Notes: generated from the letters alone by a model not told the origin. DNA of 64,000 nucleotides from an uncultured bacterium (GCA_965372795.1 CBDVDR010000007.1:64001-128000); one strand, 5' to 3'; shown: positions 170 through 7,915, counted from the first letter of the stretch. Numbers and translations are program-made.

Positions 170-2194
170 ATGATAAGGACAAAATTATCAACATCACAAA
201 ACAGGGTAGAAATTCTATATCTAATCACACTTCTGTTGTATTTAGGTGCATCGTTTATCCCTGAGTACCGAGTTTGGGGATTTTCTGTTTGGAGTCATCA
301 ACCTGTTTATATCCCAATAATTCTATCAATTTTAAGTATTGCTTTATTTTCTTATTCCATTAATAATGATATTTCAAATTCTAATAATACAGAATCTACA
401 AAGCAATTTTGGTTATTTTCTATAATTATATTTATCAGTTTTGTTTTACTTTTTATAGTTTTTCGTTCACGTGCTCATTTTTTAGGTGACGGTTATACTG
501 TTCTATCAATATTGTCATCCGATGACCCGCTTTTAAAATCTCGTGAAATTGGAGAAGTGTACGCTCATTTATGGCTTAAGGACTTGTTAGCCTATGGAGG
601 TGAGAAAGCGGCACTTTTGAGCTTTCAATTGATTTCAATTATCTCCGGAGCTTTATTTTTATTAACCACCTTGTATTATTCATTTAAACTGTTCACTAAT
701 AATAAAAATCGAATTCTATTTTCACTCGGAATAATATCCGGTGGATATATGCTAATGTGCTTTGGTTATGTCGAGAACTACTCGATTTTTGTTTTATCTG
801 TTCTAGTTTATACATTTTTAGGATTATCTATATCGCTTGGGAAATCCTCACGATGGCTGATAATACCTGCCCAAATTGCAGCTGTTATATTTCATATCTT
901 TGGTGTAACGCTGATACCTGCAACAGTATATCTCTTATTTTCAAACTCAAAATATGGTAATAAATTAAAAAATATAGATAAGAAAACTAAAACACTAATT
1001 CTATTTGTTTCAGCTATTGGAGCAGTTGCCGGTTTCATATACTACTACAAAACAAATTTCTTCTTCTATTACTCTATCGTACCATTTATTTCTGATAAAT
1101 TCACATTGGATAATTACAGTATGTTTTCAATTGCTCATCTTTTGGATATGATCAATCTACTAGTGCTTGTCATCCCGGGAATAGGGTTATTATTGCTAAG
1201 TTTGTTCACGACCAAAATATCAATTCTATTAAAAGAGAGTCATTATTTCTTTTTGATGTTATTGTCTGTTTCTGTTTTAGGTGCGTCATTCATTTTTGAT
1301 CCAAAACTTGGAATGGCAAGAGACTGGGATTTGTTCTCATATATTGCGATTCCTATTTCAATTTTCTTTTACTACTATTTAATTCGTAATCGAGCAAATT
1401 TCCCTACTAACGTAACAATAGTTTTATTATCAATTTTCCTGGGATTCTTTTCTCTTTCAGCCAGAGTTATCAGTATCAATCAACCGGAAGTAGCAGTTGA
1501 GAATTTTACCGACTATATCAACTTAGATAAAGGTAAAAATCGAAATGCGAGATATCTTCTGGCAACTTACTACAAAAACATGGGTGACAATTTAGCAGTT
1601 AAAGAAATAGTAAAAAAATGGAATACCGATTATCCGGAAAGAGTTGTATTTCAAACCGGGTTTGCCTTAAAGAATGAAGGTAAAATAGTTGAAGCATCAG
1701 GATATTTTCAAAAAGTAATGCAAATGAACCCATCCTATATTGATGCCTGGATTAATTATGGTGAATGCTTAACTAATTTAAAAAGATATAGCGAAGCAAT
1801 CCAATATTTAGAGGTAGGGGTTGGCTTAAGCCCCTATGATGCGAGTGGTTATAATAACCTTGGGGTTTGTTTTATGGGTACTGCTCAATATGATAAAGCA
1901 GAAAAAGTACTAAAAACTTGTGAGTCTTTGCCACAAGTAACTTTTGTGACTTTGTATAATCTAACTACTTTGTATCGATTGACAAGAGACCACGAACTGT
2001 ATCTGGAGTATTTAATAAAATCAGGGACTCATAAAGAAGCAGGCCTTTTTGCATTAAAAGAACTTGGTAATTATTATTTAGTAACAGCCCAATACCAGAG
2101 AGCTAAACAGATTTATTTAAGAGGTATTAATCTTGGCATGGATCAACGTTTTGAAGATTCCTTAAGACAAAATTATCCAATGCTTGGGTTATAA
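170..2194 (+). CDS. Multi-pass membrane protein with C-terminal TPR repeats (possible GT-C-type glycosyltransferase-like)
   Basis: About 11-12 hydrophobic segments in the first ~435 aa, then TPR-like repeats (DAWINYGECL, SGYNNLGVCF). Confidence 0.7.
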   Translation: MIRTKLSTSQNRVEILYLITLLLYLGASFIPEYRVWGFSVWSHQPVYIPIILSILSIALFSYSINNDISNSNNTESTKQFWLFSIIIFISFVLLFIVFRSRAHFLGDGYTVLSILSSDDPLLKSREIGEVYAHLWLKDLLAYGGEKAALLSFQLISIISGALFLLTTLYYSFKLFTNNKNRILFSLGIISGGYMLMCFGYVENYSIFVLSVLVYTFLGLSISLGKSSRWLIIPAQIAAVIFHIFGVTLIPATVYLLFSNSKYGNKLKNIDKKTKTLILFVSAIGAVAGFIYYYKTNFFFYYSIVPFISDKFTLDNYSMFSIAHLLDMINLLVLVIPGIGLLLLSLFTTKISILLKESHYFFLMLLSVSVLGASFIFDPKLGMARDWDLFSYIAIPISIFFYYYLIRNRANFPTNVTIVLLSIFLGFFSLSARVISINQPEVAVENFTDYINLDKGKNRNARYLLATYYKNMGDNLAVKEIVKKWNTDYPERVVFQTGFALKNEGKIVEASGYFQKVMQMNPSYIDAWINYGECLTNLKRYSEAIQYLEVGVGLSPYDASGYNNLGVCFMGTAQYDKAEKVLKTCESLPQVTFVTLYNLTTLYRLTRDHELYLEYLIKSGTHKEAGLFALKELGNYYLVTAQYQRAKQIYLRGINLGMDQRFEDSLRQNYPMLGL

Positions 2195-2203
2195 ATTTCA
2201 AGA

Positions 2204-4894
2204 TTAGTTTAGGCTGCTATAGGATTCGTATTTTTCAAGTAGTGCTTTAAAGCGAGGGATGTTTTGTAACGGCGCAAAAATCGGATCGGCTCTTAAATAT
2301 TTAACTGAGCTCCAGGATGGAATTGATAAGAGCAACTCAAGTTCTTCAATTGCATTATCATATTCTCCAACGATTGTGTATATAGTAGCCATGACCATGA
2401 CTGCGTCCGGTCCTCACCAGTGGCAGTCGTCAACCGACATCAACTCCTTGGATGTTTTACCCGCTTTTATAGCTTCTTCTTTATTACCCATTAAGGCATA
2501 TGTGAGACCAAGTTCTGCAAAGGCATGAAACTCGGGTTCACCTTGATCAATAATATTAGTTAAGATAATCCTTGAAGAATCATAATAAATTAGAGCCGAA
2601 TCATGATGTCCTGAGAGTTCATATAGATGGCCTATGTTCATCTGTATAATATGAGGTGATCGCTCAGCAATCGTTCCTTTAATATTGCTTAACTTTCGAA
2701 TATTCTCTATTTCAATTTGAGGGTCATATAAATCAGGAATGTATCTCCACAGCCCAAGTGAGGTACCTGAAGTCAGTTCATAGGTTGATATTTCAGCCAA
2801 TCCAACTTTTTCATATAATGTTTTAAATTCTTCAACATCGTATTCGATATTACCATAACGCAGAAGGTTAATTAAAACTTTCAGATACGCAGCATCAGCA
2901 TTATTAGGATCCAGAACCAGAGCACGATTTATATAATTATCCGCTTCTTCGTAATTCCTAGTCATACTTAAACTATTGGCTATGTAAAAGTATCTTCTAT
3001 CAGACAAGGGGTCAATTCGGATAGCTTCTTCAAATTTTTCATTCGCTTCATCCCATTTTCCCTGACGCATTTTAACAATTCCAATAGCCTGTGAGAGTTC
3101 GGCATTGCTGGTAAGTTCGGATTTGGCTCTATTAAATGATGACAATGCTTTTTCGTAATCTCTTTCGATATAATTGGAATAGGTACCCATCGCAATTTGA
3201 GCGGTTGGCAAAGTAGGATCAAGAGCCAGTGCTTTTTCAGCAGCTTTTAAAGCTTCATTTTTATGATATTTTCCATTGACCGATGTAAAATGAAAATTAA
3301 AGGTCGAATGATTCATTGATTTTTGAGCCCAGGCTAAAGCGAAATTTGAGTCAAGGGCTATGGCTGAGTCAAACATATTTATAGATCCCTGAAAATCAGA
3401 CATCCGTAAATTATGACTTGAAATCTCAAGACCCCGAAGATAAAAATTATACGCCGCCATATTTGTAGTCGGAGCATAATCAGGAGCCAGTTTATCTGTT
3501 TCCACTAAAGTCAAGCCTAAGGCGATTACAATCTGTTCAGCTATTTTTGATTGAACATCAAATATTTGCACTAATTGTTGCTCATAAATATCCGACCACA
3601 TCAGATAATTATCACTGGTTTTGGTCAATCTGGGGGTAATGCGAATACGGTCGACTTCACCGGATTTATCCCAACGTATAGTCGCCTCAAGAACATAATC
3701 GGAATTGGTTTCCTGTCCGATTTGTTCAATGCTCTTGTCAGTCTCTTTAAATTTATCAGCAGTTCTTGGTGAAATAACACGCAGTCCCTTTACAGTCGAC
3801 AAACGTGAACTGATTTCATCACGAATACCATCGGAAAAATATTCATCCTCTCCGGCACCAAGATTCTCAAACGGTAACACAATCAATACTGGCGGTTTAT
3901 TTACTATTTGTTCGGGTTGATTATAAAAATACATAAAACCGATTACAATTATAAGAAAAACTGCAACCGCTGACATTTTGAAATATAAATTTTTAAATGA
4001 CGTCTCATGTGTTCTACCAGAAGGATAGGTATGTGATTGCGAATCATACATGAGTCTTTTTAAGTCAGCAATGACACCCTCGGCTGACTGATATCTGAGT
4101 TCTTTGTCTTTTTCGATAAGTTTTAAAATAATATCCTGCAACTTATCTGGAACGTCTGATTTATACCTGTTAATTGGTTCCGGATTACTTTCAATAATAG
4201 CTTTTAATGTCGCGCCTTCATTATCACGCTTAAAAGGAGTTCTTCCGCATAATAATTCATACAGCACGATACCCAATGAAAAAAGGTCCGAACGGTGGTC
4301 GATATCTCTCCCTGAAATTTGTTCGGGTGACATATATGAAACAGTTCCAAGGGTCGAACCGGTTTTGGTTAGTTTATCATCACCCTCTGTGGCAGCTAAA
4401 CCAAAATCCAGCAGTCGTATTCTATTTGTCCTATCAAGGGCAATATTAGCAGGTTTTATGTCTCGATGGGTAATGCCATGTCGATGTGCTTCCCCCAGTC
4501 CCTGACATATTTGCAAGGCGAATTCGATGATAGCATCTGCCGGCTGTGGTTTCTCTTTTATGAAATAACGCAGCGAATGTCCATCAATATTTTCCATAAC
4601 AAAAAAAGGACGACCATTAAACTCACTTACTTCGTGGATAGTAACAATATTTGGATGGTTCAGCTTTGCAACAGCTTGAGCCTCTCTTTGAAATCGTTTT
4701 TTAATATCATCATTATTTAAGAATTGTGTAGGAAGAAATTTCAGGGCAATATTTCGTTTCAGTTTTGTATCTTCAGCCAGATAAACCTCACCCATACCAC
4801 CGGCACCAATTTTTTCAATTATTTTGTATTGATGAACCACGGTTCCTTTAGTCAGAACAACAACTGTTCGGGTATTGTCATCTTTTTGATTCAT
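2204..4894 (-). CDS. Hanks-type Ser/Thr protein kinase - TM - TolB-like - TPR protein; 896 aa if the in-frame TGA at 2414-2416 is read through (candidate selenocysteine)
   Basis: Kinase motifs GAGGMGEVY, ALK, HRDIKPAN, DFG, GTVSYMSPEQ; TM AVAVFLIIVIGFMYF; VLPFEN TolB-like motif; TPRs. ORF 2204..2398 is in frame 5 codons past the TGA and supplies the typical tail of this architecture (LRADPIFAPL..PRFKALL). Confidence 0.88.
2387..2402 (-). promoter_or_regulatory. Candidate bacterial SECIS element of the kinase gene
   Basis: Minus strand AGUCAU-GGUC-AUGGCU: 6-bp stem with one G.U, loop starting GGU, beginning 11 nt after the UGA. Confidence 0.65.
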
Positions 4895-5258: not shown

Positions 5259-6191
5259 ATGTCAAGAAAATTTACTAGAAGATCATTTATCAAGAGTAGC
5301 GCCACTCTCGGAGCGGCAACCCTTGCCGGCGGTTATCTTTTGCCGGAAATATTAAATGCCACCGAAATCACCAAACTCGACATAGCGTCAGTAGCAGGAA
5401 CCGACTATTACCAGGATACTATTGAATCAGTCAGAATGCTTGGCGGGATGAACAAATTTATTACAAGCGGTGATAAGGTTGCCATCCTTCCGAACGCAAT
5501 TGGGAAATATCCGGCGACAACCGTCAATCCGTTAGTTTTATTGGCAACTATTGCGATGTGCTTTGAAGCGGGCGCAAAAGAGATAAACCTTATTAAGGGA
5601 GTTTCTGAAAAATATTGGAACGGAAAAAATATCACCGATGATCAAATGGCTGCCTTTCAGAGATGCACTATCTCTAAACAGGAATTTGATATCATGCCAA
5701 TCAAGGATGGAATAGCACTCAAGGAAGCGCATATCAGCAAAGATCTGATGAATGCCGATAAATTTATCAATCTCGCTCATGTGAAACACCACAGCGGGCC
5801 ACAATTTACCGGCCTGCTTAAAAATTTGATGGGTGCCTGTCCTCATAACCCTACCAATAAATTTTTCCATTTTGGCTCGAATGCCTCTGATTGGTATGGA
5901 GATATAGATTTTCTTTCACAGTGTGTGGCAGATTTGAATATTTTGAGGAAACCTGACCTCTGTATTGCCGATTCGACCGAATTCCTGATTACTAACGGAC
6001 CATTCGGTCCCGGTGAAGTTAAAAAATCAGACACAGTTACTGCCGGGTTGAATCCGGTAGCAGTCGATGCCTTTTGTACCAAATTCCTTTCCTTAAAAAT
6101 TGAGGCTGTTGCGATGATCAAAATGTCGGCTCAGCATGGTCTGGGCGAAATGAATCTTGATAAACTGAACATTAAAGAAGCGATTGTCTGA
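5259..6191 (+). CDS. Tat-exported DUF362 domain protein
   Basis: TRRSFIK twin-arginine signal; GDKVAILPN, INLAHVKHH, LKNLMG, NPVAVD motifs. Confidence 0.8.
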   Translation: MSRKFTRRSFIKSSATLGAATLAGGYLLPEILNATEITKLDIASVAGTDYYQDTIESVRMLGGMNKFITSGDKVAILPNAIGKYPATTVNPLVLLATIAMCFEAGAKEINLIKGVSEKYWNGKNITDDQMAAFQRCTISKQEFDIMPIKDGIALKEAHISKDLMNADKFINLAHVKHHSGPQFTGLLKNLMGACPHNPTNKFFHFGSNASDWYGDIDFLSQCVADLNILRKPDLCIADSTEFLITNGPFGPGEVKKSDTVTAGLNPVAVDAFCTKFLSLKIEAVAMIKMSAQHGLGEMNLDKLNIKEAIV

Positions 6192-6198
6192 AAAACTC

Positions 6199-6687
6199 AT
6201 GAAAATATTAATTCTTATAATAGGTTTAGGCGTCCTTTGGAGTGGATGTAGCCAGAATTGCTCAAACAAAAGTATTGGCAGGTATTTTCCTGATAATAAC
6301 GAAGTTGTTGGATGGGTGGCAAATGACACCGTACGGACATTTGTTGGTCAAGATCTTTTTAAATTGATCAACGGCGGAGCCGAGCTGTATCACGAAAATG
6401 GGTTTGTTCAAATTGTCACTTTGACTTTTGGAAACAGTACCAACCAGGAGATCAGCATTGAAATTTATGAGATGGGCACCCCCGATGGCGCAACGGATTC
6501 CTATATGAGCAAAATTTCACCCGCAGGAAAAAAGGTCGAAATAGGCGACGAGGCTCTCCTGAACAGTTATTATTTAAATTTCAGACAGGGGAAATATATT
6601 GTTACGCTGGTCGGATATAGCGATGACACTGAAACAATTAGTGGACTAAATGGGCTGGCAAAGGTCATTTCTACAAACATTGATTAG
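6199..6687 (+). CDS. Lipoprotein (DUF6599-like)
   Basis: ATG at 6199; lipobox LWSGC; LFKLINGGAELY motif. Confidence 0.6.
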   Translation: MKILILIIGLGVLWSGCSQNCSNKSIGRYFPDNNEVVGWVANDTVRTFVGQDLFKLINGGAELYHENGFVQIVTLTFGNSTNQEISIEIYEMGTPDGATDSYMSKISPAGKKVEIGDEALLNSYYLNFRQGKYIVTLVGYSDDTETISGLNGLAKVISTNID

Positions 6688-6805
6688 TTTAGTTCTATTT
6701 TATTAATAAAAATTAAATCTTTTATAAACTTTTTCCGAATAGTATAGTTATAAGTTCGTAATACTAATTTCAAATTAATATTTATAATAATAAGAAAACA
6801 ATGCT

Positions 6806-7915
6806 TTGGAACTTAAATTTAAGCAAATAGAAAACTTAGACGATTTTCTACCAATCAAAGAGCAGTGGAACACTTTGGTTAAATCAACTCAATTGGACCA
6901 TGCCTTTTTTAGACATGAATGGTTTTCCTGCTGGATAAAACATATTAAACCAAAAAGCCAGTTAATGATTCAGACTGCCTGGAAGGGCGATCAACTGGTG
7001 GCGGCGGCCCCGATGCATATTATCAAAGAGGTTCGCAAGGGAACCCCGTTGAACCTGCTTAGTTTTCTGGTCTCGGGCATATCCCCCCGTTGTAATTTTA
7101 TAATCCATCCCTCAATAGATGAAAAATTATTTTTTGATTCTTTGTTTAACATAAAAGGGTGGAATGTAATCGAGCTGCAGGCGTTGGAAGAAAGCCAGGA
7201 GACAACCAAAATATTTCTAAAGTATCTGAAAAACAAAAGCAAACCATTCTATATCGAAGAGGGACTTCAGTCTCCTTATGATAATTTTGAGACAGACTGG
7301 GATGCTTATTTAGAAAATCGCTCAAGGAAATTTAAATATAATTACAAAAGTTCATTAAAAAGAATGAACAAAGCCAAGTCCTATCATATTTTATCAATCG
7401 ATACCTATGATGAATTTGAGAAATATTTTGATAAGCTGATTGAGATTTCCGGAAAAAGCTGGAAGAGTAAATTCAAGACTGATTTATACAATGTTCCAGC
7501 GTTAGCAAAATTTTATCTTGAGTTCAGCCGAATCGGTTCAGCCGACAAGCTGTTTGGAATGATATTATTATTTATCAATGATGAGCCGGTTGCCTTTGAT
7601 TATTTTTTGAAAAATCGTAATCGGAAAGTCGGGCTGCGCTGTGATCATGATGAAAATTTTAAGTATTATATGCCGGGAATTTTCATTCATAATCACAATA
7701 TTAAATCAATGTTTGACGATGAAGACGCCTGGGAGTTTGATTGCTCGGGGATGAAATCTGATTTTAAACTTGAGATGGTTGATAAAATCAGAAAGCATAT
7801 TGATATTACGGTTGGTTCGGCCAGTCTTTACAGTAAATTTTTGATGCTGTGTAAAAGGATGTTAATGATAAAGTCTGGGGCGATGCCTTTTCATTTAAGT
7901 TACAAAGTAAAATAG
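6806..7915 (+). CDS. GNAT family N-acetyltransferase, CelD/BcsL (Acetyltransf_6) type
   Basis: QWNTL..HAFFRHEW, DWDAYL, SWK, Y.PG, EFD motifs; paralog of 8982..10052. Confidence 0.8.
   Translation: MELKFKQIENLDDFLPIKEQWNTLVKSTQLDHAFFRHEWFSCWIKHIKPKSQLMIQTAWKGDQLVAAAPMHIIKEVRKGTPLNLLSFLVSGISPRCNFIIHPSIDEKLFFDSLFNIKGWNVIELQALEESQETTKIFLKYLKNKSKPFYIEEGLQSPYDNFETDWDAYLENRSRKFKYNYKSSLKRMNKAKSYHILSIDTYDEFEKYFDKLIEISGKSWKSKFKTDLYNVPALAKFYLEFSRIGSADKLFGMILLFINDEPVAFDYFLKNRNRKVGLRCDHDENFKYYMPGIFIHNHNIKSMFDDEDAWEFDCSGMKSDFKLEMVDKIRKHIDITVGSASLYSKFLMLCKRMLMIKSGAMPFHLSYKVK

What the first reader, a model, noticed from the sequence alone, without database searches (positions are those of the whole stretch)
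2204..4894. Candidate selenoprotein Ser/Thr kinase with a CxxU motif in its C-terminal sensor domain
Seen: the 826-aa kinase ORF stops at ...KELMSVDDCHW-TGA (2414-2416), but the frame continues GPDAVMVMATIYTIVGEYDNAIEELELLLSIPSW...LRADPIFAPLQNIPRFKALL to TAA at 2204, only 9 bp from the convergent neighbour's stop. The TGA sits three residues after a Cys (C824-H-W-U827). A hairpin AGUCAU-[GGUC]-AUGGCU starts 11 nt downstream. Established: CxxU is the classic redox motif of selenoproteins, the minimal E. coli fdhF SECIS starts about 11 nt after UGA, and bacterial SECIS loops carry a G at the start. The downstream peptide resembles the usual tail of kinase-TolB-TPR proteins. Inference: an 896-aa membrane kinase whose domain beyond the TM carries a selenenyl-sulfide switch or metal site, i.e. 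selenium-based redox or metal sensing coupled to phosphorylation. I know of no characterised bacterial selenoprotein kinase.
Basis: partly seen in the sequence, partly recalled or inferred. Interest (0 to 1): 0.93.

Follow-up and report, generated by a model that had tools for sequence, protein, structure and literature searches.

The report
Selenocysteine codon in a receptor kinase
The apparent early stop in this membrane Ser/Thr kinase gene is most likely a selenocysteine codon conserved across many uncultured bacteria, which would make it a selenium-containing signalling receptor that gene callers routinely cut short.

Summary

It is not a nonsense mutation.
- The same in-frame TGA sits in the same column, in the motif C-[H/F]-W-U-G-P, in 7 of 41 related genomes.
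- It is also in 34 of 39 pattern-matched loci (32 intact) and in 40 of 285 genomes of the phylum.
- The ~68-residue tail is as conserved as the upstream sequence. It folds as five confident TPR helices and matches NF047558.
- The hairpin pairs in 210 of 210 cells, and its closing pair covaries.
- The genome has selA, selB, selD and tRNA-Sec. Its known selenoprotein genes carry GGUC or GUU loops.

No Cys-containing counterpart turned up in three searches. Homologues without TGA have D-A-x-x-G at this place.

A 2026 table of more than 110 prokaryotic selenoprotein families contains no hit for kinase (other than PSTK), TPR, PF00069 or PF07719.

The redox-switch function is inference. Selenium incorporation itself is unproven.

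The parts
2207..4894 (-). Full coding sequence of the receptor kinase read through TGA: 896 codons, followed by the TAA stop at 2204-2206
   Evidence: The read-through homologues in other genomes span query residues 2-896 with exactly one TGA.
4082..4828 (-). Hanks-type Ser/Thr protein kinase domain (residues 23-271), cytoplasmic
   Evidence: PF00069 scores 179 bits (E 1.6e-52) over residues 23-271. The motifs GAGGMG (30), IALK (49), HRD (143), DFG (163) and SPE (189) are all present.
3920..3988 (-). Single transmembrane helix (about residues 303-325, LYFKMSAVAVFLIIVIGFMYFYN)
   Evidence: This is the only stretch with a Kyte-Doolittle 19-residue mean above 1.6 (peak 2.27 at residue 303). The N-in/C-out topology is inferred from the kinase lying on the N-terminal side and from R/K residues before the helix.
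2915..3907 (-). Extracytoplasmic sensor module with the fold of the CadC periplasmic domain (residues about 330-660): an alpha/beta subdomain followed by helices
   Evidence: The AlphaFold2 model has pLDDT 90.8 and pTM 0.90. VIA-align against 3ly7 gives Z 20.3, rmsd 4.2 and 299 of 322 residues aligned, over model residues 6..331. Foldseek TM-score normalised to the target is 0.68-0.70.
2207..2914 (-). C-terminal TPR superhelix (residues about 661-896) that carries the CxxU motif
   Evidence: Pfam TPR families match residues 544-816. The model is all-helical, with TPR-protein structural matches.
2414..2425 (-). C824-H825-W826-U827 motif, in the loop just before a TPR helix (model residues 495-498; the helix starts at 499)
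   Evidence: In alignment A3, Cys, Trp and TGA are present in 30 of 30 Sec-form rows and His in 28 of 30. They are in 0-1 of 24 rows without TGA.
2414..2416 (-). In-frame TGA, proposed selenocysteine codon 827
   Evidence: It sits in the same alignment column in 7 of 7 TGA-bearing orthologues among 41 related genomes. It is also in 34 family loci from the species-level genome collection and at 48 sites in 40 of 285 genomes of the phylum.
2387..2402 (-). Candidate SECIS hairpin: a 6-bp stem (2397-2402 with 2387-2392) and a GGUC apical loop (2393-2396). It starts 11 nt after TGA, and the loop starts 17 nt after TGA
   Evidence: 210 of 210 cells pair in 35 sequences, and the closing pair is GC 29, AU 3, GU 2, UA 1. 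It meets three of the four bSECIS model constraints quoted in PMC13188914. The energy of the hairpin alone, -4.3 kcal/mol here, does not reach -7.5.
2207..2413 (-). Post-TGA tail, residues 828-896: five helices that complete the TPR domain
   Evidence: NCBIfam NF047558 (TPR end-of-group domain) scores 53.4 bits against a cut-off of 32 on residues 835-887. Helices 499-512, 516-528, 535-540, 542-547 and 551-566 have block pLDDT 95-98. Mean pairwise identity is 39.7% downstream against 35.7% upstream.

Best explanation
The gene encodes one 896-residue, single-pass membrane receptor kinase, not an 826-residue one.

Domain order:
- a catalytically complete Hanks-type Ser/Thr kinase in the cytoplasm
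- one TM helix
- outside the membrane, a CadC-like sensor module followed by a TPR superhelix.

How the recoding works (inferred from conservation): UGA-827 is read as selenocysteine by SelB and tRNA-Sec. These are directed by a minimal SECIS hairpin (6-bp stem, GGUC loop) that lies inside the coding sequence 11 nt downstream. That hairpin is why all family members carry the peptide V-M-V-M-A there.

Where Sec sits: Sec827 and Cys824 form a CxxU pair in the loop that caps the next TPR helix.

What it most likely does (inference only): the pair is redox-active. It could form a reversible selenenylsulfide, or capture an electrophile or a soft metal. A change in its state would alter the conformation or the binding of the last five TPR helices and so set kinase output.

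Shown here: conservation of the TGA, motif, hairpin and tail; the Sec machinery; the fold.
Inferred: actual Sec insertion, the topology, and the switch chemistry.

My confidence of 0.8 is for the recoding claim. For the redox-switch step I would say about 0.45.
For: 1. Conserved TGA.
- Among the window's genome and 40 relatives, the best full-length hits in 7 genomes (42-62% identity to each other's query span) each contain exactly one TGA.
- All 7 have it in the same column, within D/x-C-[H/F]-W-TGA-G-P.
- A DNA pattern scan of one genome per species returned 39 loci. Of these, 34 lie in this kinase-TPR context and 32 have intact tails of 62-70 residues.
- In 285 genomes of the phylum the codon pattern C-x-W-TGA-G-P occurs at 48 sites in 40 genomes. 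The reversed control pattern gave 2 sites.

2. The tail is translated protein.
- NF047558 matches residues 835-887 above its cut-off.
- Identity after the SECIS codons is 39.7%, against 35.7% before the motif (33 sequences, 528 pairs).
- The tail forms five high-confidence helices.
- The Gly right after the TGA aligns with a Gly kept in 35 of 42 homologues without TGA. Its codon varies synonymously: GGA at 43 sites and GGC at 5 of 48.

3. Cys824 and the TGA always occur together.
- Cys is in 30 of 30 Sec-form rows and 0 of 24 other rows.

4. The hairpin.
- 42 of 42 cells pair in the 7 sequences found without any hairpin pattern.
- 210 of 210 cells pair in 35 sequences. The closing pair, at two codon third positions, covaries: GC 29, AU 3, GU 2, UA 1. 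None of 500 shuffles reaches the covariation score.
- The competing RNAalifold helix breaks in exactly the 4 sequences where column 15 changes.
- Loop size (4), stem length (6 bp), G in the first loop positions and the 17-nt spacing fit the bSECIS model quoted in PMC13188914 (passages read).
- Val is GTC at both hairpin codons, although GTC is only 18.5% of Val codons in this genome.

5. Sec machinery and known selenoproteins in the same genome.
- tRNA-Sec scores 68.9 bits, and ARAGORN calls tRNA-SeC with anticodon tca.
- selB scores 323.6 bits, selA 513.6 bits, and selD 389.3 bits with its own in-frame TGA.
- Known selenoprotein families in this genome have hairpins with GGUC or GUU apical loops: two TIGR01926 AhpD-like CxxU proteins, a thioredoxin-like UxxC protein and a DUF3179 protein. 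HdrA carries two in-frame TGA codons, but no hairpin was resolved in its 60-nt fold.

6. All 5 genomes behind loci labelled with other phyla have selA above the cut-off.

7. In a tree with the motif columns removed, 28 of 30 Sec forms lie on one side of a branch with 99% support. This points to an old, maintained trait.
Against: - No Cys-containing counterpart was found, although nearly all selenoprotein families have them (PMC13188914).
  - 0 of 42 full-length homologues have Cys at either column.
  - 0 of 285 genomes have a Cys version in a kinase context; the 10 pattern hits are all in unrelated short frames and fall below the reversed-control count of 24.
  - None was seen among the best 150 of 35,352 profile hits in 1.84 billion representatives.
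- The hairpin alone is weak: -4.1 to -7.3 kcal/mol, and -4.3 in the window. This is short of the model's -7.5. The local MFE is not better than shuffles (z = 0.16).
- Four of the six stem pairs never vary. Columns 1-8 and 16-22 of the 35-sequence set were fixed by my own search pattern, so only the 3' half and the closing pair are free evidence.
- TGAGGA contains a Shine-Dalgarno-like GAGGA, and two conserved ATGs follow 12 and 18 nt later. This genome does use SD motifs: AGGA lies upstream of 26% of 1,333 crude long-ORF starts against 4.8% background. A stop-and-restart reading is therefore not excluded.
- Sec machinery is near-universal in the relatives (selA in 40 of 41, tRNA-Sec in 38 of 41). 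Its presence therefore does not discriminate between readings.
- No protein-level or RNA-level data exist here.
Confidence: 0.8

Rival explanations
1. Split gene with termination and reinitiation. TGA is a true stop. The GAGGA overlapping it acts as a Shine-Dalgarno site, and translation restarts at the conserved ATG (Met833 or Met835). The result would be an 826-residue kinase plus a ~64-residue TPR cap peptide that assembles with it.
For: - TGAGGA is invariant, and two ATGs are conserved 12 and 18 nt after the stop.
- The genome uses SD-like motifs.
- The hairpin is weak by energy.
- No Cys counterpart exists.
Against: - It does not predict the strict coupling of Cys824 with the TGA: 30 of 30 against 0 of 24.
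- It does not predict covariation of the stem-closing pair.
- It does not explain codon-like conservation of Gly-Pro between the stop and the ATG. The Gly is conserved family-wide in 35 of 42 homologues without TGA, GGA/GGC vary synonymously, and the Pro third position varies.
- Residues 828-832 would be lost from both products, although they start a confident helix.
- The SD-to-ATG spacing of 12 nt is long (recalled rule of thumb, not tested).
Confidence: 0.07
2. Sec is real, but the site is a metal or metalloid ligand set rather than a redox switch. Cys824, His825 and Sec827 would bind a soft metal (for example Hg, Cu, Zn or As species), and the kinase would report metal exposure.
For: - Cys, His and Sec lie within four residues, and His is in 28 of 30 Sec forms.
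- The 2026 review states that about 70% of predicted Sec-ligand interactions involve metals or metal-derived groups (PMC13188914, passage read).
- Asn574 is a second Sec-form-specific column: 93% against 0%.
Against: - His is replaced by Phe in one subclade: L072, L075 and their relatives G021 and G119. So His is not an obligatory ligand.
- No metal-resistance genes flank the gene. The neighbours are a TPR protein, DUF362, DUF6599 and a GNAT-like protein.
- Nothing here tests metal binding.
Confidence: 0.2
3. Nonsense mutation, pseudogene or sequencing error in this genome only.
For: Gene callers end the protein at TGA. 8 of 50 database homologues stop at ...CHW, and one is named by NCBI as an 819-aa TPR Ser/Thr kinase.
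Against: - The same TGA occurs at the same column in dozens of independently assembled genomes. They are 35-73% identical in the sensor domain and have intact, conserved tails.
Confidence: 0.01
4. Sec-independent read-through. UGA is decoded by a near-cognate tRNA (Trp, Cys or Arg) at low efficiency, helped by the downstream structure.
For: Downstream hairpins can stimulate stop-codon read-through (general knowledge, recalled).
Against: - A sense codon would serve better and would be expected to replace the TGA over this much divergence, yet no Cys, Trp or Arg form was found.
- The hairpin has the loop sequence and spacing of SECIS elements of proven selenoprotein families in the same genome.
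- The Sec machinery is present.
Confidence: 0.03

Closest known systems
Bacterial CxxU selenoproteins decoded through an in-frame SECIS hairpin (for example the AhpD-like TIGR01926 proteins, present twice in this same genome)
   Same: - UGA is followed by a short hairpin whose apical loop starts with G (GGUC or GUU).
- A Cys lies three residues before Sec.
- They depend on selA, selB, selC and selD.
   Different: - Those are small thiol oxidoreductase folds with abundant Cys homologues.
- Here the motif sits in a TPR inter-helix loop of a 896-residue receptor kinase, and no Cys form was found.
[quoted passage not shown]
   Same: It is a non-oxidoreductase envelope receptor carrying a CxxU motif outside the cytoplasm (passages read).
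   Different: - It is an outer-membrane beta-barrel transporter with no signalling domain.
- It is reported to have Cys-containing homologues.
Selenoprotein O and bacterial SelO-like selenoproteins (PF02696)
   Same: It is the only kinase-fold protein family known to contain Sec (PMC12013277, passages read).
   Different: - SelO is a soluble pseudokinase that AMPylates.
- The window protein is a canonical PF00069 kinase with HRD, DFG and SPE motifs and gave no PF02696 match.
- Its Sec lies 550 residues from the kinase domain, on the other side of the membrane.
CadC periplasmic pH and lysine sensor of E. coli (PDB 3LY7), which has a functional periplasmic disulfide (PMC3096576; title and start of abstract seen in the listing)
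   Same: - Residues 330-660 share its whole fold: Z 20.3, with 299 of 322 residues aligned.
- Both are single-pass membrane proteins with a cytoplasmic output domain.
- In CadC a Cys pair in the sensor affects signalling.
   Different: - CadC's output is a DNA-binding domain.
- Sequence identity is only 10-11%.
- The CxxU of the kinase lies in the extra TPR extension (model residues 495-498), outside the part that aligns with CadC.
Paralogous kinase-TPR receptor kinases without TGA, in the same genomes
   Same: They share the same architecture and 31-45% identity over the full length. The same TPR end domain is present.
   Different: - They have D-A-[LVYFMI]-x-G where the Sec forms have C-H-W-U-G.
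- They have Tyr where the Sec forms have Asn574.
- They lack the V-M-V-M-A peptide and the hairpin.
E. coli fdhF minimal SECIS (recalled, not retrieved here)
   Same: As recalled, the functional upper hairpin carries a GGUC-containing apical loop and works at about 11 nt from the UGA. That matches the geometry seen here.
   Different: - The comparison rests on memory and on the general model quoted in PMC13188914.
- No Rfam family matched the region.

Membership tests
Bacterial selenoprotein (SelB/SECIS-decoded UGA) | In-frame TGA conserved at the homologous position in orthologues from different genomes | tested here: met
   It is in the same column in 7 of 7 TGA-bearing orthologues among 41 genomes. 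It is also in 34 loci of the species collection and in 40 of 285 genomes of the phylum.
Bacterial selenoprotein (SelB/SECIS-decoded UGA) | Protein-level conservation continues in frame downstream of the TGA | tested here: met
   NF047558 matches residues 835-887. Identity is 39.7% downstream against 35.7% upstream. Tails of 62-70 residues are intact in 32 of 34 loci. The tail forms confident helices.
Bacterial selenoprotein (SelB/SECIS-decoded UGA) | bSECIS geometry: 3-9 nt apical loop, 4-16 bp stem, G in the first two loop positions, 16-37 nt from UGA to the loop (PMC13188914, Fig. 2 legend) | tested here: met
   The loop is GGUC (4 nt), the stem is 6 bp and the spacing is 17 nt. 210 of 210 cells pair, and the closing pair covaries.
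Bacterial selenoprotein (SelB/SECIS-decoded UGA) | bSECIS stability: MFE of -7.5 kcal/mol or lower | tested here: inconclusive
   The hairpin alone gives -4.1 to -7.3 kcal/mol (window -4.3). The 48-nt MFEs are -6.3 to -17.4 but mostly use other folds. The z-score against shuffles is 0.16.
Bacterial selenoprotein (SelB/SECIS-decoded UGA) | Genome encodes tRNA-Sec, SelA, SelB and SelD | tested here: met
   All four score above the curated cut-offs. selA is also present in 5 of 5 genomes behind loci with other phylum labels.
Bacterial selenoprotein (SelB/SECIS-decoded UGA) | Cys-containing homologues align Cys with the TGA (the usual, not obligatory, criterion) | tested here: not met
   0 of 42 full-length homologues. 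0 of 285 genomes. None among the best 150 profile hits, which gave 156 domains with a residue at that column.
Bacterial selenoprotein (SelB/SECIS-decoded UGA) | Selenium shown in the polypeptide (75Se labelling or MS) | not testable with these tools
   No proteomic data are available, and no sequencing run was listed for the locus.
Hanks-type Ser/Thr protein kinase (PF00069) | Kinase domain with the Gly-rich loop, VAIK Lys, HRD, DFG and APE/SPE motifs | tested here: met
   PF00069 scores 179 bits over residues 23-271. GAGGMG, IALK, HRD, DFG and SPE are present.
CadC-type periplasmic sensor domain | Two-subdomain fold (alpha/beta plus helical bundle) of the CadC periplasmic domain | tested here: met
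   Z is 20.1-20.3 to 3ly7, 3ly8, 3ly9 and 3lya, covering 292-307 of 318-323 residues. This shows fold likeness only: identity is 10-11%, and no sequence-family test was made.
Selenoprotein O (PF02696) | SelO/YdiU pseudokinase domain | tested here: not met
   No PF02696 match appeared in the Pfam scan at E up to 0.01.
Thioredoxin-fold CxxC/CxxU oxidoreductases | The redox motif sits at the start of helix 1 of a thioredoxin fold | tested here: not met
   The motif lies in a loop between two TPR helices of an all-helical domain. No thioredoxin-like family matched.

The most novel reading that the evidence does not exclude
This would be an obligate-Sec family (no Cys form found) of extracytoplasmic sensors, and the first selenoprotein class in bacterial signal transduction.

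In this reading the receptor works at two levels.
- The Cys-Sec pair reports envelope redox state, or electrophile or metalloid exposure, to a Ser/Thr kinase.
- Synthesis of the complete receptor itself depends on selenium supply. When selenium or SelB capacity is short, UGA terminates, and the cell makes a receptor lacking its last five TPR helices.

The ratio of full-length to truncated kinase would then act as a built-in selenium-status signal. The presence of up to four copies in some genomes would fit such a dosage-sensitive system.
Probability: 0.12. Interest if true: 0.9.

Novelty: new variant of a known kind. Interest (0 to 1): 0.75.

Why it matters
Known prokaryotic selenoproteins are mostly redox enzymes or their accessory proteins, or are predicted to serve redox functions. 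A 2026 table of more than 110 families contains no hit for kinase (other than PSTK), threonine, TPR, sensor, PF00069 or PF07719 (PMC13188914; passages and Table 1 rows read).

A receptor kinase with Sec in its sensing domain would extend selenium biology to signal transduction.

Because no Cys counterpart was found, methods that rely on Sec/Cys pairs may miss such a family. The deep-Sep authors say this of their own method (PMC12013277). That suggests further obligate-Sec families remain unseen.

There is also a practical annotation consequence. Public gene calls end these proteins at ...CHW: 8 of 50 homologues do, one of them named by NCBI as an 819-aa kinase. Each loses a 62-70-residue structural cap.

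The short, highly conserved hairpin (GGUCAUGGUCAUGGCC) is a compact natural SECIS that could be tested directly in reporter systems.

Tried and rejected
- Rfam scan at E up to 10 over 2300-2480: only four chance-level matches (snoZ175, HOTAIR_2, Transposase-1, bxd_5) and no SECIS family.
- RNAalifold on 7 sequences proposed two small helices (5-8/15-18 and 20-23/28-31) without covariation. The first breaks in the 4 sequences where column 15 changes.
- Single-sequence folding gives no signal (z = 0.16).
- Sec machinery as a discriminator: useless among relatives, because selA is in 40 of 41 and tRNA-Sec in 38 of 41.
- Cys-form searches: all negative. Only the best 150 of 35,352 profile hits could be inspected.
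- The search of earlier findings by place: nothing for this genome.
- Literature searches for a bacterial selenoprotein Ser/Thr or sensor kinase found nothing relevant. The GOS selenoproteome paper mentions protein kinases only in its reference list. Supplementary tables of the deep-Sep paper and of the review were not opened and could list further candidates.
- My crude whole-genome scan for C/U motifs (152 candidates, output cut) is mostly noise. Only the six candidates later matched to families were used.
- A monophyly test was only partly clean. 2 of 30 Sec rows (L086, L091) fall outside the main clade, and one row without TGA (P0026) falls inside. The minimum is 3 changes, and starred branches force at least 2.
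- Slips corrected: structure strings of the wrong length and search terms with a slash or too short.
Full report
**1. What is in the sequence**

On the minus strand an ORF runs from ATG at 4894 to TGA at 2414-2416 (826 codons). Read through that TGA, the frame stays open for 69 more codons to TAA at 2204-2206, giving 896 residues. The peptide around the stop is ...KELMSVDDC-H-W-[TGA]-G-P-D-A-V-M-V-M-A-T.... The convergent neighbour's ORF ends at 2194, 9 bp away. Eleven nucleotides after the TGA comes AGUCAU-GGUC-AUGGCU, at 2402-2387.

**2. What kind of protein it is**

- Pfam finds a protein kinase domain at residues 23-271 (179 bits) and TPR repeats between 544 and 816.
- The catalytic signatures GAGGMG, IALK, HRD, DFG and SPE are all present. 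There is one strongly hydrophobic stretch, residues about 303-325.
- An AlphaFold2 model of residues 330-896, built on a 54-row alignment, is confident (pLDDT 90.8, pTM 0.90).
- The first 331 model residues have the fold of the CadC periplasmic sensor domain (3ly7: Z 20.3, rmsd 4.2, 299 of 322 residues aligned; Foldseek TM 0.68-0.70). The rest is a TPR superhelix.
- Cys824, His825, Trp826 and codon 827 are model residues 495-498. They sit in the loop between helix 476-489 and helix 499-512.
- The 69 residues after the TGA form five helices with block pLDDT of 95-98. They match NCBIfam NF047558, a TPR end-of-group domain (53.4 bits, cut-off 32, residues 835-887).
- A protein ending at residue 826 would therefore lack the end of its own domain.

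**3. Is the TGA an accident?**

No.
- I searched the window's genome and 40 relatives with the read-through protein. The best full-length matches in six other genomes, at 42-62% identity, each contain exactly one TGA.
- I aligned 21 loci. All seven TGA-bearing genes have the TGA in one column, within C-[H/F]-W-TGA-G-P, followed by a conserved tail that ends at the homologous place. Twelve TGA-free paralogues have D/E-A-x-x-G/A there. Two loci did not align because they were cut.
- A DNA pattern taken from the seven sequences was scanned over one genome per species and gave 39 loci. Thirty-four are this gene: 32 have intact 62-70-residue tails, one tail is cut at 35 residues, and one is frame-broken. 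Five are chance hits in unrelated frames.
- A looser codon pattern (Cys-x-Trp-TGA-Gly-Pro) occurs at 48 sites in 40 of 285 genomes of the phylum. The reversed control gives 2 sites. Some genomes have 2-4 copies.
- Record titles label the carriers Zixibacteria, Ignavibacteria, Neomarinimicrobiota, Calditrichaeota and 'FCB group'. Several 'Ignavibacteriales' records are identical to genomes that the genome tool places in the window's own family. The true taxonomic breadth is therefore narrower than the labels suggest, and the window's organism is most likely a zixibacterium.

**4. Is the tail translated as part of the same chain?**

- Mean pairwise identity among 33 family members is 39.7% in the tail (after the hairpin codons) and 35.7% in the 64 residues before the motif (528 pairs).
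- The Gly immediately after the TGA aligns with a Gly kept in 35 of 42 TGA-free homologues.
- The codon for that Gly varies synonymously (GGA 43, GGC 5 of 48), and the Pro third position varies freely.
- This pattern fits translated codons. It is not what a ribosome-binding site would show.

**5. The hairpin**

- In the seven sequences found without reference to the hairpin, all 42 stem cells pair.
- In 35 sequences, 210 of 210 cells pair. The closing pair is formed by two codon third positions and occurs as GC 29, AU 3, GU 2, UA 1. None of 500 shuffles reaches the observed covariation score.
- Caveats: columns 1-8 and 16-22 of that set were fixed by my search pattern, and four of the six pairs never vary. 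The free evidence is therefore the 3' half and the closing pair.
- The alternative helix proposed by RNAalifold is broken in exactly the four sequences in which column 15 changes.
- The element fits three of the four constraints of the consensus bacterial SECIS model quoted in PMC13188914 (Fig. 2 legend, read): a 4-nt loop, a 6-bp stem, G at the first loop positions, and 17 nt from UGA to the loop.
- It fails the fourth constraint, stability. The hairpin alone gives -4.1 to -7.3 kcal/mol, against a required -7.5. Single-sequence folding is no better than shuffles. No Rfam family matches.
- The hairpin explains the Sec-form-specific peptide V-M-V-M-A. It also explains the use of GTC for both valines, although GTC is only 18.5% of Val codons in this genome.

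**6. Can this organism insert Sec?**

- The genome (98.65% complete) has tRNA-Sec (68.9 bits; ARAGORN anticodon tca), selB (323.6 bits), selA (513.6 bits) and selD (389.3 bits, itself with one in-frame TGA).
- It also carries recognised selenoprotein families with in-frame TGA: two AhpD-like TIGR01926 proteins (CVHU, CHYU), a thioredoxin-like UxxC lipoprotein, a DUF3179 protein and HdrA. DUF3179 and HdrA are listed in the review's Table 1.
- The hairpins of four of these genes have GGUC (two genes) or GUU (two genes) apical loops. The kinase's loop is therefore of the type used by this genome's own selenoprotein genes.
- The machinery is nearly universal among the relatives (selA 40 of 41, tRNA-Sec 38 of 41), so it does not discriminate within the group. 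All five genomes tested from differently labelled loci have selA.

**7. The unusual point: no Cys form**

- Cys824, Trp826 and the TGA occur in 30 of 30 Sec-form rows, and in 0, 1 and 0 of 24 other rows. His825 occurs in 28 of 30 against 1 of 24.
- A word-indexed search of 5.8 billion proteins gave 50 homologues. Eight stop at ...CHW, which are truncated gene calls. The other 42 are full length, and none has Cys at either column.
- The Cys version of the codon pattern gave 10 hits in 285 genomes. That is below the reversed-control count of 24, and none lies in a kinase or TPR frame.
- A profile of 33 Sec-form C-termini (Sec written as Cys) was run against 1.84 billion representatives. No CxxC form appears among the best 150 of 35,352 hits.
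- In a tree built without the motif columns, 28 of 30 Sec rows fall on one side of a 99%-supported branch together with one TGA-free row (P0026, motif D-P-W-S-S-G). Two Sec rows (L086, L091) fall elsewhere. At least two changes are forced.
- The simplest reading is an old Sec-bearing clade that arose from D-A-L-x-G ancestors. No Cys form, extant or intermediate, was found.

**8. Rivals**

- The serious one is stop-and-restart. TGAGGA contains an SD-like GAGGA, two conserved ATGs follow, and this genome does use SD motifs.
- That rival does not explain the Cys-TGA coupling, the covarying stem, or the codon-like conservation of Gly-Pro. I give it about 0.07.
- A private nonsense mutation or a sequencing error is excluded by the comparative data.
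- Near-cognate read-through is unlikely, because a sense codon would then be expected somewhere in the family.

**9. Function**

This part is inference. A CxxU pair at the start of a helix on the outer face of the membrane suggests a redox-active selenenylsulfide. Electrophile or metal capture is an alternative. The state of the pair could alter the last five TPR helices and so change kinase signalling.

- The CadC fold of the adjacent module is a useful analogy, because CadC signalling involves a periplasmic disulfide (PMC3096576, listing seen). However, the CxxU lies outside the CadC-like part.
- His825 is replaced by Phe in one subclade. This argues against an obligatory Cys-His-Sec metal site.
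- Asn574 is a second Sec-form-specific column: 93% against 0%, with Tyr in the other forms. It may face the motif, but I could not check this without model coordinates.

**10. Prior knowledge**

- The 2026 review of the prokaryotic selenoproteome has no hit for kinase (other than PSTK), threonine, TPR, tetratricopeptide, sensor, PF00069 or PF07719, in Table 1 or in the text.
- The nine new families of deep-Sep include a SelO-like protein and a TonB receptor but no Ser/Thr kinase.
- Five full-text searches found nothing. Supplementary files were not opened.
I count it as a repeat, not as evidence.

**11. Verdict**

This is a genuine, conserved and systematically mis-annotated candidate selenoprotein family: a receptor Ser/Thr kinase with Sec in its extracytoplasmic TPR sensor. 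My confidence that the UGA is read as Sec is about 0.8-0.9. My confidence in a redox-switch role is about 0.45. It needs 75Se or MS evidence and a reporter test.

Noticed in passing
L096-L100 (G000:C1:118270-119163, C16:37366-38457, C19:20063-20635, C31:672-1217, C63:22-1683) and L019: The genome carries at least six other selenoprotein genes with in-frame TGA. They are a thioredoxin-like UxxC lipoprotein with a TPR/YfiO-like tail, a DUF3179 protein (WUPLC), two AhpD-like TIGR01926 proteins (CVHU, CHYU), HdrA with two TGA codons, and selD (CAGUASK). In four of them the SECIS apical loop is GGUC or GUU.
   Followed up: partly
P0026 (protein), alignment and tree: One TGA-free homologue sits inside the Sec clade next to the Neomarinimicrobiota-labelled Sec forms. 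At the motif it has D-P-W-S-S-G with a one-residue insertion. This may be a secondary loss of Sec that kept the Trp.
   Followed up: no
window 3171-3173 (-), residue 574: Asn574 is the only Sec-form-specific column outside the motif and hairpin region: 93% of 30 Sec rows against 0 of 24, with Tyr in the other forms. It lies about 250 residues before the CxxU, roughly one TPR superhelix turn away, so it may face the motif in 3D. I could not check this without coordinates.
   Followed up: no
L061 and L062: Two family loci look degenerate. L061 has a tail cut by TAG after 35 residues. L062 is frame-broken on both sides of the motif, which may reflect indel errors in a long-read assembly.
   Followed up: no
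G134:C27:210606-213303 and other multi-copy genomes: Some genomes hold several Sec-kinase copies: G134 four, G162 three, and G116, G196 and G208 two each. Two copies in G134 and two in G208 lie about 2.7 kb apart, so they are tandem genes. In G032 and G021 the Sec form sits directly next to TGA-free paralogues.
   Followed up: no
window 170-2194 (+): The convergent neighbour is a 674-residue TPR protein whose stop lies only 9 bp from the kinase's true stop. That leaves no room for separate terminators between the two genes.
   Followed up: no
L059, L066, L095 versus G003, G018, G024: Records titled 'uncultured Ignavibacteriales' carry kinase loci identical to genomes that the genome tool places in the window's own family. 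Sister genomes are titled Zixibacteria. The submitters' taxon labels and the genome-based grouping therefore disagree.
   Followed up: partly
window 5259-7915 (+): Across a 364-bp gap, a run of genes diverges from the kinase's 5' end: DUF362 (310 aa), DUF6599 (167 aa, overlapping the DUF362 stop) and a GNAT-like acetyltransferase (369 aa). No functional link to the kinase is evident.
   Followed up: no
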